DNA of 64,000 bases from Ostreococcus lucimarinus. Its lineage: Eukaryota. The stretch lies in the NCBI GenBank assembly GCA_000092065.1, contig CP000588.1; one strand, written 5' to 3'. Shown here in pieces: positions 26,503-31,663 of this stretch. The translations under genes were made by a program, and so were the position numbers. Below the pieces are notes generated by a model, which did no database searches, had not been told where the DNA came from, and saw only the letters and a list, made by a program, of their open reading frames with translations. Position 1 is the stretch's first letter. Each line of letters opens with the position of its first letter.

Positions 26503-28602
26503 ATGGCGAGCGACGACGACGTCGATCCGCTGGACGCGTTCATGGCGACGCTCGACGTGCCGGCGAGCGGGACGCGCGACGACGCGCGCGCGACGACGAC
26601 GCGCGACGACGACGACGACGACGACGCGTTCGGACTGTCGATGGCGATGCTGGGCGCGCGCGCGGCGACGCGGCGCGCGACGGACGCGGACGCGGACGAG
26701 GAGGAGGAGGACGACGCGCGGGCGACGACGGCGAGCGACGACGACGACGACGCGGGCGACGCGCGAGGACGACGCGGACGACGAGACAGCCTGCGCGAGG
26801 TCGATCACGCGCGCGAGGAGTACGAAAAGTTTGAGCGCGTGACGTACGTCGCGCCGAAGGAGCTCGCGGACGTGGACGTCGGCGCGGCGCGGGCGGCGGC
26901 GGACGCGCGCGCGAGCGGCGGCGCGGAGGACGTCGCGCCGATCTCGCGGTTCGGTCAAGGCGGCGCGTTGGACGTCGATTGCCTGCGGGCGCTGCGGCGG
27001 ATGGGATACGAATCGCCGACCGCGGTTCAGGCGCAGTGCTTGCCGGTGATCTGGAGCGGGCACGATGCGTTGGTGATGGCGAAGACGGGGTCGGGGAAGA
27101 CGCTGGCGTTTTTGCTGCCGGCGTACGCGCAAATTTCCAGGCAAAGGCCGTTGACGAAGCGCGAGGGCCCGATCGCGCTCGTGCTCGCGCCCACGCGCGA
27201 ACTCGCGTCGCAGATCGCGAACGAGGCGCACAAGTTTACGAAATTTGGCGTATCGGGGGCGCGATGTTGCGCAATCTTCGGCGGCGTCTCCAAGCGCGAC
27301 CAATTCAAAAAGCTTCGCGCGGGAGCGGAGATCGTCGTCGCGACGCCCGGGCGTTTGGTGGACGTGCTGTGCATGAAGAATTCGACAAATTTACGTCGCG
27401 TCACGTACTTGGCGCTGGACGAAGCCGACCGAATGCTTGACATGGGTTTCGAAAAAATCGTACGCTCGATTTGTCAGGCGGTTCGTCCCGACAGGCAGTG
27501 CGTGATGTTTAGCGCCACGATGCCCGCGGCCATGCAGCGATTGGCTCGCGACGTTCTCGCGCGAGACGCTGTCACTGTCTCCATCGGTAACGTCGGAGGC
27601 GCGAATGAGGACGTGCGACAAGTCGTGTACGTCTTCGAAGACGACGCTCGCCGCGCGGCTTGGTTGTTTGAAAATCTCGGCGACGCCGTCGACGAAGGAC
27701 AAGCCATCGTCTTCGTCAATCACAAGTCGTCCGTGGAAGAGCTCGTGAACGAGCTCGCGACGCGCGGAATAAAAGCCGTCGCCTTGCACGGCGACTTGGA
27801 TCAAGCGCAAAGACAATTCGCGATGAAGGCTTTTAAGAGTGAGCACGCGCACGTGCTCGTGGCGACGGATGTCGCCGCTCGCGGACTCGACGTTGAGGCG
27901 ATTAAAACCGTCGTAAACTTCCACCCCGCGCGCGATATGTCGACGCACGTGCATAGAATCGGTCGCACCGGTCGCGCAGGTGCGCTCGATGGCCGTGCGT
28001 ACACCTTGTTCACCGCGCGTGATTCTGCAAAGTTCGCGCAGCAGTTGGAACAAAATTTGGAAGCCGCGGGCCAACCGGTGCCGCTCGATTTGAAGGCGCT
28101 CGCGCGCGGCACGTACAACAAACGCCCTAGAAGTGATCACGGCGGCGACGCACCTCGGCACGGCAAGGTCGGCGGTAGGGGACTTGGTTTCACATCGCAC
28201 CATCGGCCGAGCGCAGGCGGCGGCGCGTTCGGCGGTGGCCGCGGCGGCGCGGCGAGACCCGCGCCGAGCGCCGACTTTACCGCGGTACCGCCGCCATCAC
28301 AAACGCAGCAACCACAAGCGCCGAACGCCGCTGCGATCATCGCTCAGGCGCGCGCGAAAGCCGAGGCCATCGCGAAGCAGCTACAGGCGCCCGCGATGGT
28401 ATCCGTGCCGAACGCCGCTGCGATCATCGCTCAGGCGCGCGCGAAAGCCGAGGCCATCGCGAAGCAGCTACAGGCGCCCGCGATGGTATCCGTGCCTCCA
28501 CCGCCGCCGCCGGCGCCCGTCGGACCCGCTGCTGCTGCGGCGGCGGCGGCCGCCGCCATCGCGGCGCGCCTCGCGGCGCAAGCGCCTCCACCGAATCCGT
28601 GA
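26503..28602 (+). CDS. DDX42: DEAD-box ATP-dependent RNA helicase DDX42-like (SF3b-associated)
   Basis: Reads AKTGSGKT, PTRELA, DEADRMLDMGF, SAT, HRIGRTGRAG. Long collinear identity to DDX42 (GPIAxxxxPTREL..GAEIVVxTPGRL..NLxRVxYLxxDEADRMxDMGFE..VRPDRQ..FSAT..GxANEDVxQxV..VLVATDVAARGLD..IKTVxN..ARDxxTHxHRIGRTGRAG). ATG 26503 (MASDDDVDPL). The upstream 25723-26502 part of the ORF is antisense to RPC9. Confidence 0.8.
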   Translation: MASDDDVDPLDAFMATLDVPASGTRDDARATTTRDDDDDDDAFGLSMAMLGARAATRRATDADADEEEEDDARATTASDDDDDAGDARGRRGRRDSLREVDHAREEYEKFERVTYVAPKELADVDVGAARAAADARASGGAEDVAPISRFGQGGALDVDCLRALRRMGYESPTAVQAQCLPVIWSGHDALVMAKTGSGKTLAFLLPAYAQISRQRPLTKREGPIALVLAPTRELASQIANEAHKFTKFGVSGARCCAIFGGVSKRDQFKKLRAGAEIVVATPGRLVDVLCMKNSTNLRRVTYLALDEADRMLDMGFEKIVRSICQAVRPDRQCVMFSATMPAAMQRLARDVLARDAVTVSIGNVGGANEDVRQVVYVFEDDARRAAWLFENLGDAVDEGQAIVFVNHKSSVEELVNELATRGIKAVALHGDLDQAQRQFAMKAFKSEHAHVLVATDVAARGLDVEAIKTVVNFHPARDMSTHVHRIGRTGRAGALDGRAYTLFTARDSAKFAQQLEQNLEAAGQPVPLDLKALARGTYNKRPRSDHGGDAPRHGKVGGRGLGFTSHHRPSAGGGAFGGGRGGAARPAPSADFTAVPPPSQTQQPQAPNAAAIIAQARAKAEAIAKQLQAPAMVSVPNAAAIIAQARAKAEAIAKQLQAPAMVSVPPPPPPAPVGPAAAAAAAAAAIAARLAAQAPPPNP
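28321..28494. repeat. Perfect 87-bp tandem duplication (2 copies) inside DDX42 C-terminal coding region (29-aa repeat PNAAAIIAQARAKAEAIAKQLQAPAMVSV)
   Basis: 28321-28407 and 28408-28494 are identical base-for-base and in frame. Confidence 0.9.
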
Positions 28603-28644: not shown

Positions 28645-29307
28645 CTAGTCTCGAAACATCGCAGCGATGCGTTCCTTTCTGTCTTCCTCGGCGCGTTTCT
28701 TCGCCTTGACGTACGCGTCGACGGATCGAAAACGAACGCCGACGTTCGTCGCTTCGATGTGCGTCTTTCCCGGCTCGGTGCCTCTAAAAAAGTGATACTT
28801 GGGATTGGACGACGTCGTCTCTCGTACAATAGCCCCAGTGTGCGAATTCTCGCTCGTATCCACTCGAGAGTACTTGGACAGCAAGCTCTGCAACATCTTG
28901 GCGCGTCGCGCCTCGACGCTCGCCGCCGCGCCCTTGGTACGCTCCACCCTCTCTTGAATCTTCCCCGCGATGACGCGCTCGGATTCGTTTTGCATGGCTA
29001 ATATTTCTCGCATCACGAATTCAGCATCCTTTTCGACGTCGCGAATCTCCGCGCCTTCCACTCGAACGAACGCCGTCTCGCCGTCTTCGTCCTCGTCCTC
29101 GTCGCTCCCCGCGTCCGCCGCCGCGCGCCGTTCCGCCGCGTCGTCGCCCTCGTTCGCGCCATCCCGCGCGTCGCCGCCGTCTGAATCGCGCCGTCCCGCC
29201 GAAAACTCGGACGACGCCTCCGACGTTTCGCGCTCGCGAGACAACCAACCGCGCACCGTCGCCGTCGCCGCGTCGATCGCGTCGTCGTCGCCCCGTTCGT
29301 TGTCCAT
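28645..29307 (-). CDS. Hypothetical acidic (nucleolar-type) protein; C-terminus weakly Fcf2/rRNA-processing-like
   Basis: MDNERGDDD... acidic/Ser-rich then ..KMLQSLLSKYSRVDTSENSHTGAIVRETTSSNPKYHFFRGTEPGKTHIEATNVGVRFRSVDAYVKAKKRAEEDRKERIAAMFRD. ATG 29305-29307. The rest of the ORF upstream runs into the tandem repeat. Confidence 0.4.
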   Translation of the reverse strand: MDNERGDDDAIDAATATVRGWLSRERETSEASSEFSAGRRDSDGGDARDGANEGDDAAERRAAADAGSDEDEDEDGETAFVRVEGAEIRDVEKDAEFVMREILAMQNESERVIAGKIQERVERTKGAAASVEARRAKMLQSLLSKYSRVDTSENSHTGAIVRETTSSNPKYHFFRGTEPGKTHIEATNVGVRFRSVDAYVKAKKRAEEDRKERIAAMFRD

Positions 29308-29457
29308 CGCCTCGCGCGCGCTCGACCCGTCGTCGCCGTCGAGCGCGCGCCTCCGAGACGTCGTCGCGAATCGCCGTCGATCCGCGTCCTCGCGCGCGCG
29401 TCGTCGTCGCGCGCGTCGTCGCGCGTCGCGCGCGCCGTCTCGGAGGCGCGTCGAGGC

Positions 29458-29707
29458 GTGCCGCGGCCGTTGGCGCTGTCGTGTAATGATGGGTATATAT
29501 ACACGCACAGTACATGACTTGGTGTCGTATACAGTACACACACGAGACGATCAGTGCGCGATCGTCGTCGCGTCGGTTCGCGGTGCCGCGGCCGTTGGCG
29601 CTGTCGTGTAATGATGGGTATATATACATGCACAGTACATGACTTGGTGTCGTATACAGTATACACACGAGACCATCAGTGCGCGATCGTCGTCGCGTCG
29701 GTTCGCG
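29458..29707. repeat. ~125-bp tandem duplication (2 copies, ~97% identical) carrying a TATA-box-like motif (gggtatatatac) in the divergent promoter between the 28645..29307(-) and 29864..31402(+) genes
   Basis: Copy 1 29458-29582, copy 2 29583-29707. Differences: cacgcac/catgcac, gtacacacacgagacg/gtatacacacgagacc. AT-richer than the surroundings. Confidence 0.8.
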
Positions 29708-29863
29708 CCGTCGATCGCCGCGGCGCCGCATCTCGACGCGCGCGCGCCGCGACGATCGATCGTCGGCGCGCGCGCGCGCTCGCATCGCGCGCGCGCGTCG
29801 CATCGCTCGCGCGTCGACGCCTCCGCGGCCGCGACGACGCGACGACGCGACGACGACGACGCG

Positions 29864-31402
29864 ATGACGGTTGACGTCGACGTCACGACGGCGCGCGCGA
29901 CGCGCGACGCGTGCGACCCGCGACGGCGGCGGTGGGGCGCGGCGCCGGCGATCGGGCGCGCCGTCGTGACGACGCCGGCCGACGGCGCGCACGACGACGA
30001 TCGACGGGCGTTTCGGAACGGGGCGAGCGCGGTGGAGGATCCGGGGGAGTGCGAGCGCGCGGCGTCGACGCTCTGGGGATCGTCGTCGTGGTTCTCGGGA
30101 GACGTGGACGCGAGCGCGCGCGAGGCGAACGCGGCGAGCGTGGGATACGGCGAGAGGGAGGCGGACGGCGGGGCGGGGGGCGCGCCGGGAGGGGCGACGT
30201 GTCAGAATAGATTTATCGAGGGACGAGGCGCGCGGGATCCGTTCGCGCCGGCGAGCGGCGCGGGGACGAGGTTGGACGAATCGCGGGGGGGGAGGGAAAG
30301 CGACGGCGACGGGTGGAAAATCACGCGATGGGACACGACGATGGTGCCCGCGGGCGAGGGACGCGGCGTGGACGCGGTGGGGAGGAAGCCGGGGTATCGC
30401 GCGTTCGCGGGCGGCGAGGCGAGACGGTTGGCCGAGCGCCCGACGGGGGCGACGTTTGAGTTCGACAGCGCGCGTCAGTGTTGGTTGTTGATTCGAGATG
30501 GGGAGTCGAGGGAGCTGGAGCGGCCGTCCCGCGCGATGGACTCGCCGTCGGCGGTGTCTTCGGGCGACGACGAGTGCTCGACGGACGCCATGGACGCGAC
30601 GACGGTGGACGTCGACGCGTTCGCGGAGGGCGGCGATAACGAAGCCTTCGACGTCGACGACGACGACGAAGGTCGCGAGATGCGCGAAAAGACTCGAGAG
30701 GAGCGCATCAGGCGGTATCAACCCTCGTACGACGAGTGCGCCGCGCGTTTCGTCGACCGCGAGCGCGAACGCCGAGATCGATTCGAGGCGTCGCGCAGGA
30801 CGCTCGCCGAACGGAGAGCTGCGCCGCGAACGACGCCGACGAAGCGTCGTTCGGAAGATGTCGGAGTTGACGCGTCGCAGCAATCGACGTGGATTCCGCT
30901 GACGTGCGACTGCGGCGTCAAGGTGTGGATCGAAGCGTCGCCGACGATCGATCCGAGCGCGCAACTCGCGTCCTGGGTCAACGGCGACGTTCCGTGGCCC
31001 GTCGTCCGCACGCTCGACCTCGGGCGCGACCGCGCGTCTCGAGGAATTCCGCGAAACGCGCCCGGGCCGGTGTGCGTGGACGCCGCCGCGCTCGCGGCGG
31101 TCGAAGCCGAGCTGCGCCGCCGTCACGACGAAAACGTCGAGCACGCCGCGCGATCGAAACGACCGAACGCTCGAGCCGTCGATCCAACCGATCCCGACGC
31201 CGTCAAGCACGCCAGCATCATCGACACCCTCGTTCGGGAGACCACCAAGTCCTCACCGAACGACGTCGACGCTTCTTTATCCATCCACGAGCAGCGCGCT
31301 TTGCGCTCGAAGCTCGAATCGACGATTCGCGAAAAGCACGCCGCGTTGGCCGAGTGCGAGCGCCTTCGCGAGTTACTCCGCAGCGCCGGCGTCGAGCCCT
31401 GA
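29864..31402 (+). CDS. Hypothetical protein (~512 aa), Asp/Glu-rich middle, conserved-looking Cys/Trp-containing C-terminal region
   Basis: ATG 29864 (MTVDVDV...). C-terminus STWIPLTCDCGVKVWIEASPTIDPSAQLASWVNGDVPWPVVRTLDLG. The opposite-strand 729-aa ORF is pure Arg-rich junk. Confidence 0.4.
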   Translation: MTVDVDVTTARATRDACDPRRRRWGAAPAIGRAVVTTPADGAHDDDRRAFRNGASAVEDPGECERAASTLWGSSSWFSGDVDASAREANAASVGYGEREADGGAGGAPGGATCQNRFIEGRGARDPFAPASGAGTRLDESRGGRESDGDGWKITRWDTTMVPAGEGRGVDAVGRKPGYRAFAGGEARRLAERPTGATFEFDSARQCWLLIRDGESRELERPSRAMDSPSAVSSGDDECSTDAMDATTVDVDAFAEGGDNEAFDVDDDDEGREMREKTREERIRRYQPSYDECAARFVDRERERRDRFEASRRTLAERRAAPRTTPTKRRSEDVGVDASQQSTWIPLTCDCGVKVWIEASPTIDPSAQLASWVNGDVPWPVVRTLDLGRDRASRGIPRNAPGPVCVDAAALAAVEAELRRRHDENVEHAARSKRPNARAVDPTDPDAVKHASIIDTLVRETTKSSPNDVDASLSIHEQRALRSKLESTIREKHAALAECERLRELLRSAGVEP

Positions 31403-31663
31403 TCGCGCGCTTTCGCGCGATCGTCGTTTACGCGTCGTTTACATTCATTATTACGGTGTCGCATTAGTGCGAGTCGTCGTCGCGCGCCGCTACTCGGCGC
31501 GTCGTCCCGTCCCGTCCCGTCCCGAGAGTTAGTTGAAATGAAAATATCTTTTCCTCACAATCGCCCGCGCGCGACGTCTCCGCGCGCCATCATACGCGCC
31601 CACGCCGCGCGCTCGATCACCCGCCGCGCCTTGGTCGGCTCGTCGTCGCTGTCGTCGCTCCGA

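What the first reader, a model, noticed from the sequence alone, without database searches (positions are those of the whole stretch)
29458..29707. Tandemly duplicated 125-bp TATA-containing element in a bidirectional promoter
Between two divergently oriented genes lies a 2x125-bp direct repeat (~97% identity). Each copy carries gtgtaatgatGGGTATATATACa(c/t)gcacagtacatgac. This is an AT-rich island with a TATA-box-like core in otherwise >65% GC DNA. It could be a duplicated core promoter or a short dispersed element.
Basis: seen in the sequence. Interest (0 to 1): 0.5.

Follow-up and report, generated by a model that had tools for sequence, protein, structure and literature searches.

The report
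Copy-number-variable duplicated promoter segment in picoalga
The 2 x 125-bp repeat is a real, recent tandem duplication of the stretch between two back-to-back genes of an Ostreococcus-like marine picoalga; related environmental sequences carry one to three copies joined in at least five different ways, so it is a variable promoter repeat, not a mobile element or an RNA gene.

Summary
Window 29458-29707 is a head-to-tail duplication of 125 bp with 3 mismatches. It lies between a leftward gene (ATG 29307) and a rightward gene (ATG 29864) of an Ostreococcus-like green picoalga.

It is not dispersed. The window holds no other copy, and every metagenome match is this same locus. It matches no Rfam family and folds no better than shuffled sequence.

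The unexpected result is at population level. Of 25 independent contigs of the same species, 13 have one copy and 12 have two or three. There are five full-unit junction types, with periods 125, 135, 130, 127 and 107 bp, plus one array that starts with a 31-bp partial copy. The 107-bp type sits on a different haplotype background from the 125-bp type. Over about 8 kb, all but one of the indels of 4 bp or more, and nearly all the SNP diversity, fall in this intergenic region.

Only the 3' half of the unit is conserved in a sister lineage, where it aligns with a canonical TATAAAG. That half holds GTATACAGTATAC and AGACCATCAGT. The TATATATA half is lineage-specific and abuts a deletion of the left gene's N-terminal half.

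Best reading: a copy-number-variable tandem duplication of a core promoter segment. Promoter function is inferred, because no TSS data were available. This is a new member of a known kind and of modest interest.

The parts
29458..29582 (.). Copy 1 (distal to the right gene) of the 125-bp unit. At all three variable sites it carries the state not found in single-copy alleles, including G in AGACGATCAGT.
   Evidence: Single-copy contigs and the sister lineage match copy 2 at these sites.
29583..29707 (.). Copy 2 (proximal to the right gene) of the 125-bp unit. It has the ancestral-like sequence.
29493..29502 (.). Perfect 10-bp palindrome GTATATATAC (TATA-like) in copy 1. It is lineage-specific and is a possible TATA element for the leftward gene (inferred).
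   Evidence: It is not alignable to L004. It reads TATACATAC in L003 and L014.
29618..29627 (.). The same palindrome GTATATATAC in copy 2.
29652..29681 (+). Conserved module in copy 2: GTATACAGTATAC, then ACACG, then AGACCATCAGTG. It aligns with GTATAAAGCATAC...AGACCATCAGT of the sister lineage. It is the putative TATA element plus initiator of the rightward gene (inferred).
29527..29556 (+). The same module in copy 1, with two of the three copy-specific changes (GTATACAGTACAC and AGACGATCAGTG).
29448..29457 (.). Left flank GCGTCGAGGC. Its CGTCGA is repeated in the right flank and forms the crossover point of the 135-bp junction type seen in other contigs.
29708..29719 (.). Right flank CCGTCGATCGCC. 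The right-hand breakpoints of the 135-, 130-, 127- and 107-bp junction types all fall within these first 10 bases.
28645..29307 (-). Leftward gene (220 aa, no known family). It lacks about 216 N-terminal codons that are present in three related lineages.
29864..31402 (+). Rightward gene (512 aa, restricted to Ostreococcus-like algae, no known family). Its start MTVDVD is conserved. The 587-aa ORF that starts at ATG 29639 inside copy 2 is most likely a gene-caller artefact.

Best explanation
The repeat is one allele of a copy-number-variable tandem duplication (a minisatellite-like VNTR) of about 107-135 bp. It covers the low-GC core of the promoter region shared by two divergent genes of an Ostreococcus-like picoalga.

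Shown: the unit is single-locus. Its 3' half is ancestral and conserved in a sister lineage. Conspecific genomes carry one, two or three copies, with five full-unit junction types whose breakpoints cluster in the CG-rich, microhomology-rich flanks.

Inferred: (1) The duplications arose repeatedly, by replication slippage, microhomology-mediated template switching or unequal exchange between the short similar CG-rich flanks, for example CGTCGA on both sides. (2) The conserved GTATA(C/A)AG...AGACCATCAGT module is the TATA-plus-initiator core promoter of the rightward gene. (3) The lineage-specific palindrome GTATATATAC may serve the truncated leftward gene. (4) Extra copies add a second or third core promoter. 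Transcripts from a distal copy would carry a longer leader with four upstream ATGs, so copy number probably changes the amount or the translatability of the right gene's mRNA.
For: Repeat and mismatches.

Real in reads.

Single locus.

Not an RNA family or a stable fold: (z-scores -0.09 to -1.35).

Divergent genes, with gene order conserved in related lineages L004-L006 (in O. tauri only on the right-gene side).

Alleles:
- Single copy in L003, L008, L011, L017, L018, L021, L022 and L029-L034. These include contigs built at k=127 or 141 and contigs whose naming and frameshifted ORFs suggest long-read assemblies, neither of which should collapse a 125-bp repeat.
- 125-type junction in the window, L015, L023, L025 and L026.
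- 135-type in L010, L012, L014 and L015, and probably in L019, whose array is interrupted by Ns just after CCGTCGA.
- 130-type in L023 and L024.
- 127-type in L016.
- 107-type in L009.
- Three copies in L015 and L023.

The 107-type carries markers of a different haplotype group (CACATGAG, GAAAACGACG) from the 125-type, so its origin is independent.

Local hypervariability: among 8 haplotypes over about 8 kb, every indel of 4 bp or more except one lies in 29381-29845. Nucleotide diversity (pi) is 0.015-0.07 there against 0-0.003 elsewhere.

Conservation of the 3' half, aligned with TATAAAG in L004.
Against: No transcription start data could be obtained, so promoter function and any expression effect are untested.

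The TATATATA motif is not conserved: it is absent in L004 and variable within the species. AGACCATCAGTG is not enriched in the window (3 matches at up to 2 mismatches against 1.86 expected), so it is not a demonstrable general initiator motif.

More distant lineages (L005, L006) have no recognisable island.

Some junction types could derive from one another by small deletions (135 to 130, 130 to 107) rather than by separate duplications. The number of independent events is therefore at least two or three, not necessarily five.

Metagenome contigs are population consensus sequences. Scaffolds built at low k may collapse repeats, so the 13:12 tally is not an allele frequency.
Confidence: 0.72

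Rival explanations
1. A neutral hypermutable minisatellite. The island and its CG-rich flanks are merely a slippage-prone stretch of non-coding DNA, the copies have no regulatory role, and the variation is drift.
For: The flanks are low-complexity CG repeats with abundant microhomology. SNP diversity is also raised across the whole intergenic region, as expected for unconstrained or error-prone DNA. The copies differ freely at several sites, and TATATATA itself varies. A similar 128-bp x 3.1 array of unrelated sequence lies upstream of the O. tauri orthologue, which fits a generic tendency.
Against: The 3' half of the unit is conserved in a lineage that differs at 5-9% of bases in the aligned flanks and is otherwise unalignable across the left part of this intergenic region. 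That argues for constraint. The island is the only candidate promoter sequence between two divergent, conserved genes. All five full-unit junction types retain the same complete 107-bp core.
Confidence: 0.18
2. A short dispersed or mobile element (MITE-like or introner-like) that inserted twice in tandem.
For: It has a discrete 125-bp unit whose composition differs from its surroundings. Short repeated elements are known in related algae (introner elements of Micromonas; my own knowledge).
Against: There is no other copy in 64 kb, even at 3 mismatches. The metagenome scan found only this locus. No terminal inverted repeats bound the unit and no target-site duplication is present. The 3' half is orthologous single-copy sequence in the sister lineage. 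Junction positions differ among alleles, which is unlike insertion.
Confidence: 0.02
3. A small non-coding RNA gene (snoRNA, snRNA or Pol III type-3 gene with an upstream TATA) duplicated in tandem.
For: It has a TATA-like motif, a UGAUGG that resembles a C box, and conserved blocks in a sister lineage.
Against: No Rfam family scores at E below 0.01 anywhere in 29200-29950, and none reaches gathering score in the window. Folding energy is no better than for shuffles on either strand. There is no D box (CUGA) in register and no run of four or more T to terminate Pol III on either strand (read directly).
Confidence: 0.03
4. An assembly artefact or collapsed heterogeneity in the reference.
For: Short-read scaffolds break or carry N gaps here: L010, L019, L027 and the ends of L001/L002.
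Against: The novel junction sequence is found in five assemblies from different samples, including contigs of 681 kb. The Logan break point is exactly the one predicted.
Confidence: 0.02

Closest known systems
Tandem repeats in the cyp51A promoter of Aspergillus fumigatus (TR34, TR46, TR120)
   Same: Several tandem duplications of different length (34 to 120 bp) cover the same promoter element just upstream of one gene. Alleles with different repeat length and copy number coexist in natural populations (PMC6390761, PMC7711461, PMC9241776).
   Different: In Aspergillus the duplicated element is an upstream activator-binding platform (SrbA, AtrR, CBC/HapX). The selective agent (azoles) and the expression effect are demonstrated. 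Here the duplicated piece appears to include the core promoter itself, it lies between two divergent genes of unknown function, and neither an expression effect nor selection has been shown.
Promoter minisatellites / VNTRs (for example human INS-VNTR and MAOA-uVNTR; tandem repeats in yeast promoters linked to expression divergence, Vinces et al. 2009; all cited from memory)
   Same: Head-to-tail copies in a promoter, copy number polymorphic within the species, generated by slippage or unequal exchange.
   Different: The unit is long (107-135 bp) and copy number is low (1-3). The alleles differ in junction position, not only in copy number, so there were several founding duplications rather than expansion of a single array.
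TATA-box / initiator core promoter in a bidirectional gene pair
   Same: The position between divergent genes, a TATA-like sequence about 22-25 bp upstream of a conserved CA-containing motif, and a palindromic TATA that could act in both orientations.
   Different: The TSS is unknown. The conspicuous TATATATA is not conserved. The distance from the unit to either ATG (about 150 bp leftward, about 160-240 bp rightward) implies fairly long CG-rich leaders.
Dispersed short repeats of Mamiellophyceae (introner elements of Micromonas; from memory)
   Same: A short, discrete, repeated sequence in a compact, high-GC prasinophyte genome.
   Different: It is single-locus, intergenic, tandem and partly orthologous to single-copy sequence in a sister lineage. 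It is not a member of this group.

Membership tests
Minisatellite / VNTR | Head-to-tail direct copies of a unit of roughly 10 to a few hundred bp | tested here: met
   TRF gives period 125, 2.0 copies, 97% matches and no indels.
Minisatellite / VNTR | Copy number varies among individuals of the species | tested here: met
   One copy in 13 contigs and two or three copies in 12 contigs of the same species (99-100% identical flanks).
Core promoter with TATA box | TATA consensus located about 25-35 bp upstream of a mapped transcription start | not testable with these tools
   No transcript or TSS data are available. The only support is the spacing of GTATACAG/TATAAAG about 22-25 bp upstream of the conserved ACCATCAGT.
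Core promoter with TATA box | Conservation of the element in orthologous promoters | tested here: inconclusive
   The 3' half of the unit, including the second TATA-like motif, is conserved in L004 (score 48 against shuffles 15.6 +/- 2.3). The TATATATA half is not. L005, L006 and O. tauri show no recognisable island.
Dispersed repeat / MITE | Copies at several unrelated loci | tested here: not met
   None in the window. The metagenome scan returned only this locus. Viral hits were chance 18-mers. The rest of the source genome could not be searched directly.
Dispersed repeat / MITE | Terminal inverted repeats and target-site duplication | tested here: not met
   No inverted repeat bounds the unit, and the base before copy 1 and the base after copy 2 give no duplicated target.
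Known non-coding RNA family | Match to a covariance model, or a stable conserved fold | tested here: not met
   There are no Rfam hits at gathering score, and the weak hits lie in CG-rich flanks or sit far below their gathering scores, not on the low-GC core. Fold z-scores are -0.09 to -1.35.
Adaptive promoter duplication (cyp51A-TR type) | Several independent duplications nested over one regulatory core | tested here: met
   Five full-unit junction types all include the same 107-bp core. The 107-type is on a different haplotype background. Some types may be secondary derivatives.
Adaptive promoter duplication (cyp51A-TR type) | Duplication raises expression and is favoured by a known selective agent | not testable with these tools
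   There are no expression data. Both flanking genes lack any family assignment, and the AF2 model of the right gene was poor (pLDDT 54).

The most novel reading that the evidence does not exclude
The island is a selection-maintained, contingency-like promoter. Copy number (1-3) tunes expression of one or both of two lineage-restricted genes of unknown function and is kept polymorphic in the ocean population, with duplications arising again and again. The unrelated 128-bp x 3.1 tandem array directly upstream of the O. tauri orthologue would then be a convergent amplification at the same gene.
Probability: 0.15. Interest if true: 0.55.

Novelty: new member of a known kind. Interest (0 to 1): 0.3.

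Why it matters
By itself a 2 x 125-bp promoter duplication is ordinary. What deserves a note is that the same roughly 107-bp core has been duplicated in several different ways. About half of the recovered environmental haplotypes of a very abundant marine picoalga carry extra copies, while the surrounding 8 kb is almost invariant. If copy number changes expression, this would be a natural, easily genotyped example of cis-regulatory copy-number variation in a wild phytoplankton population. It would also be a handle on two conserved genes of unknown function. There is a practical point too: the locus breaks short-read assemblies and misleads prokaryote-style gene callers, which start the right gene inside the repeat.

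Tried and rejected
- **Rfam.** Permissive scan of 29200-29950 and gathering-threshold scan of the whole window. Only weak hits, most of them in the CG-rich flank.
- **Folding.** RNA folding of each copy on both strands. No better than shuffles.
- **Bacterial signals.** Promoter and terminator scan. Nothing found, and not relevant to a eukaryote.
- **Phage collection.** blastn. No match.
- **Viral contigs.** Scan with an 18-mer. It gave 16 hits in phage genomes of about 30% GC, with no similarity outside the 18-mer, so they are chance.
- **Species identification.** Protein search with pol alpha and cluster look-ups. All close relatives are unnamed metagenome proteins. The nearest named relative is O. 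tauri (37% for the right gene; 78.6% over the C-terminal 960 residues of pol alpha).
- **Function of the flanking genes.** Pfam at E up to 1, plus PDB sequence and profile searches. Nothing found. The AlphaFold model of the right gene had mean pLDDT 54 and pTM 0.26, too poor for a fold search, so none was run.
- **Motif enrichment.** AGACCATCAGTG is not enriched in the window.
- **Pol III type-3 / telomerase-RNA idea**, prompted by PMC8287931. Rejected because there is no T-run terminator and no template-like sequence.
- **Transcript-derived contigs to map the TSS.** Not attempted, because the look-up returns the longest contigs first.

Full report
**1. The observation**

Window 29458-29707 is a perfect-register tandem duplication of 125 bp: 2.0 copies, 97% matches, no indels, TRF score 479. 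The copies differ at three sites: 29504/29629 C/T, 29537/29662 C/T and 29549/29674 G/C. The quoted 23-mer occurs exactly twice, against 0 expected. TATATATA occurs nowhere else in the 64 kb.

The low-GC character is real, at about 40% GC in a 70% GC kilobase. It is not special, though: 71 stretches of the window fall at or below 37.5% GC.

**2. Context**

The window is eukaryotic. It encodes DNA polymerase alpha, a gamma-tubulin complex protein, U3 snoRNP10 and a DEAD-box helicase as long single-exon ORFs.

The right-hand gene's only named homologue is from Ostreococcus tauri, at 37% identity. The gene order helicase(+) / left gene(-) / right gene(+) / PCMT(+) / pol alpha(-) is kept in three related unnamed lineages, L004, L005 and L006. 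In O. tauri chromosome 8 only the right-gene/PCMT/pol-alpha part is kept, and the helicase and the left gene are not detectable upstream. I could not name the species. It is abundant in marine metagenomes: its PCMT protein is on more than 300 contigs.

The left gene starts at ATG 29307 on the minus strand (220 aa). The right gene starts at the conserved MTVDVD at 29864 (512 aa). The repeat therefore occupies 250 bp of a 556-bp divergent intergenic region.

**3. The duplication is real in reads**

Two Logan contigs from separate sequencing runs are identical to the window over 8.6-9.0 kb, and both end at 29678. With k=31 (my own knowledge of how Logan contigs are built), 29678-29708 is the last 31-mer that is unique. 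The next one, 29677-29707, lies wholly in the 3' end shared by both copies and has two continuations, C into the flank and G into the next copy. That break point is specific to the junction TTCGCG|GTGCC. The same junction is assembled through in L015, L023, L025 and L026.

**4. What it is not**

- **Not dispersed.** There is no other copy in the window at up to 3 mismatches or by seed-and-extend. The viral-contig hits are chance 18-mers in phage genomes of about 30% GC.
- **Not a known RNA.** Nothing reaches Rfam gathering scores. In the permissive scan no hit has E below 0.01, and most lie in the CG-rich flank. Neither strand of either copy folds better than shuffles (z -0.09 to -1.35).
- **Not a MITE or a Pol III gene.** No terminal inverted repeats or target duplication bound the unit, and neither strand has a run of four T.

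**5. Comparison with relatives**

L004 is a sister lineage: 91-95% DNA identity in the flanks and 99.4% identity for pol alpha. It has a single island. blastn homology resumes at window 29646, inside copy 2.

A local alignment shows that unit positions 64-125 are homologous to L004, from GGTGTCGTATACAGTATAC through AGACCATCAGT to GGTTCGCG. The score is 48 against 15.6 +/- 2.3 for shuffles, with a maximum of 24. In this stretch the window's GTATACAG aligns with a canonical TATAAAG, about 22 bp upstream of the shared ACCATCAGT.

The 5' half of the unit, which holds GGGTATATATAC, has no significant counterpart in L004. It reads TATACATAC in the conspecific contigs L003 and L014. More distant lineages show no recognisable island.

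The left gene is 447-464 aa in L004-L006. BLASTP aligns the window's ORF only from L004 residue 217 onward, with similarity continuing 16 codons upstream of the present ATG. So the window's lineage lost about 216 N-terminal codons. The lineage-specific half of the unit sits at that breakpoint.

**6. The population picture**

This is the main new result. Through the 90% clusters of the right gene and of PCMT I retrieved further contigs of the same species. Counting independent contigs:

| Allele | Contigs |
|---|---|
| One copy, both boundaries present | L003, L008, L011, L017, L018 (same contig as L028), L021, L022, L029-L034 |
| 125-bp junction GGTTCGCG\|GTGCCGCGG | window, L025, L026; also the proximal junction of the three-copy alleles L015 and L023 |
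| 135-bp junction ...CCGTCGA\|GGCGTGCC (crossover in the CGTCGA present in both flanks) | L010 (same scaffold as L020), L012, L014, L015; probably L019, whose array is broken by Ns just after CCGTCGA |
| 130-bp junction ...CCGTCG\|TGCCGCGG | L023, L024 |
| 127-bp junction ...CCGTCGATCG\|GCCGTTGG | L016 |
| 107-bp junction ...CCGTCG\|TGTAATG | L009 |

The single-copy set has 13 contigs. It includes contigs built at k=127 or 141 and contigs whose naming and frameshifted ORFs suggest long-read assemblies, neither of which should collapse a 125-bp repeat.

L024 also has a 31-bp partial copy at its left end. L013 and L027 are uninformative.

The left breakpoints fall between 3 bp before and 24 bp after the unit start. 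The right breakpoints fall within 0 to 10 bp after the unit end. Every full-unit type therefore retains the same 107-bp core.

The 107-bp allele carries markers of the haplotype group that is otherwise single-copy (CACATGAG, GAAAACGACG). The 125-bp alleles carry the other group's markers. At least these two arose separately. Some types could be secondary deletions of others (135 to 130, 130 to 107). I therefore claim at least two or three independent events, not five.

In an alignment of eight haplotypes over about 8 kb, every indel of 4 bp or more lies in 29381-29845, except one of 5 bp at 31503. Nucleotide diversity (pi) is 0.015-0.07 in 29103-29881 against 0-0.003 elsewhere.

**7. Mechanism**

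Shown: this is a single-locus, copy-number-variable tandem duplication whose 3' half is constrained.

Inferred:
- The conserved TATA-like motif plus ACCATCAGT is the right gene's core promoter.
- The palindromic GTATATATAC may drive the truncated left gene.
- The CG-rich, mutually similar flanks favour slippage, microhomology-mediated template switching or unequal exchange (GCGTCGAGGCGTGCCG against GCGTCGGTTCGCGCCG, and CGTCGA on both sides).
- Additional copies add promoters. Transcripts starting in a distal copy would carry four upstream ATGs (29611, 29614, 29629, 29639). One of these opens a frame that overlaps the main start out of frame, and one opens the in-frame 587-aa extension (read).

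All three differences in the window's copy 1 are states not found in single-copy alleles, including G in the conserved ACCATCAGT. This fits relaxed constraint on the distal copy, but it rests on only three sites.

**8. Comparison with known things**

The closest analogue I can document is the set of nested tandem repeats TR34, TR46 and TR120 in the Aspergillus fumigatus cyp51A promoter (PMC6390761, PMC7711461, PMC9241776). There too, different duplications cover one regulatory core. The differences are that the duplicated piece there is an activator platform, and that the expression effect and the selection are proven. More generally this is a promoter VNTR. It is not a member of any dispersed-repeat or RNA family.

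**9. Verdict**

The reading 'duplicated core promoter' is plausible but untested. The reading 'dispersed element' is rejected. The locus is more variable than a single neutral duplication would suggest, but both flanking genes are of unknown function and there are no expression data. It is a new member of a known kind, and I score interest at about 0.3.

Noticed in passing
window 28320-28496: A perfect 87-bp x 2.0 tandem duplication (100% identity, TRF score 354) lies inside the C-terminal coding region of the DEAD-box helicase and adds 29 in-frame residues. It is also present in metagenome contig L008. The ENA scaffold L003 ends next to it, at a position corresponding to about window 28514, so it too breaks assemblies.
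   Followed up: partly
window 28645-29541 (-): The left gene is 220 aa here and in conspecific contigs, but 447-464 aa in three related lineages. BLASTP similarity to the L004 protein starts at its residue 217 and continues 16 codons upstream of the present ATG. An N-terminal half of about 216 codons has therefore been deleted in this lineage, with the breakpoint next to the repeat.
   Followed up: partly
L007 3525-3917 (O. tauri CAID01000008.2): A 128-bp x 3.1 tandem array (97% matches) of unrelated sequence lies directly upstream of the O. tauri orthologue of the right gene. The period is similar and the position is the same. By a rough estimate chance is not excluded (about 8%). L004-L006 have no such array.
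   Followed up: partly
window 29103-29881: Nucleotide diversity among 8 conspecific haplotypes is 0.015-0.07 here, against 0-0.003 in the adjacent 7 kb of mostly coding sequence. This seems higher than neutral diversity would predict, given how little variation the adjacent coding sequence shows. The region includes the CG-rich 5' ends of both genes.
   Followed up: partly
window 29639-29863: Prokaryote-style gene callers start the right gene at ATG 29639 inside copy 2, giving a 587-aa product in many database entries. The conserved start is 29864 (512 aa), so database proteins of this family carry a spurious 75-residue N-terminal extension derived from the repeat.
   Followed up: yes
window 29737-29778: An almost perfect 42-bp CG-rich palindrome (two 21-nt arms, 90% complementary, no spacer) lies in the presumed 5' leader of the right gene. 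Its function is unknown.
   Followed up: no
whole window: Composition is strongly heterogeneous. Conserved gene bodies are about 52-58% GC, whereas intergenic regions and gene 5' ends are 70-76% GC with CG/CGA/CGT low-complexity repeats (281 TRF rows at score 30 or more).
   Followed up: no
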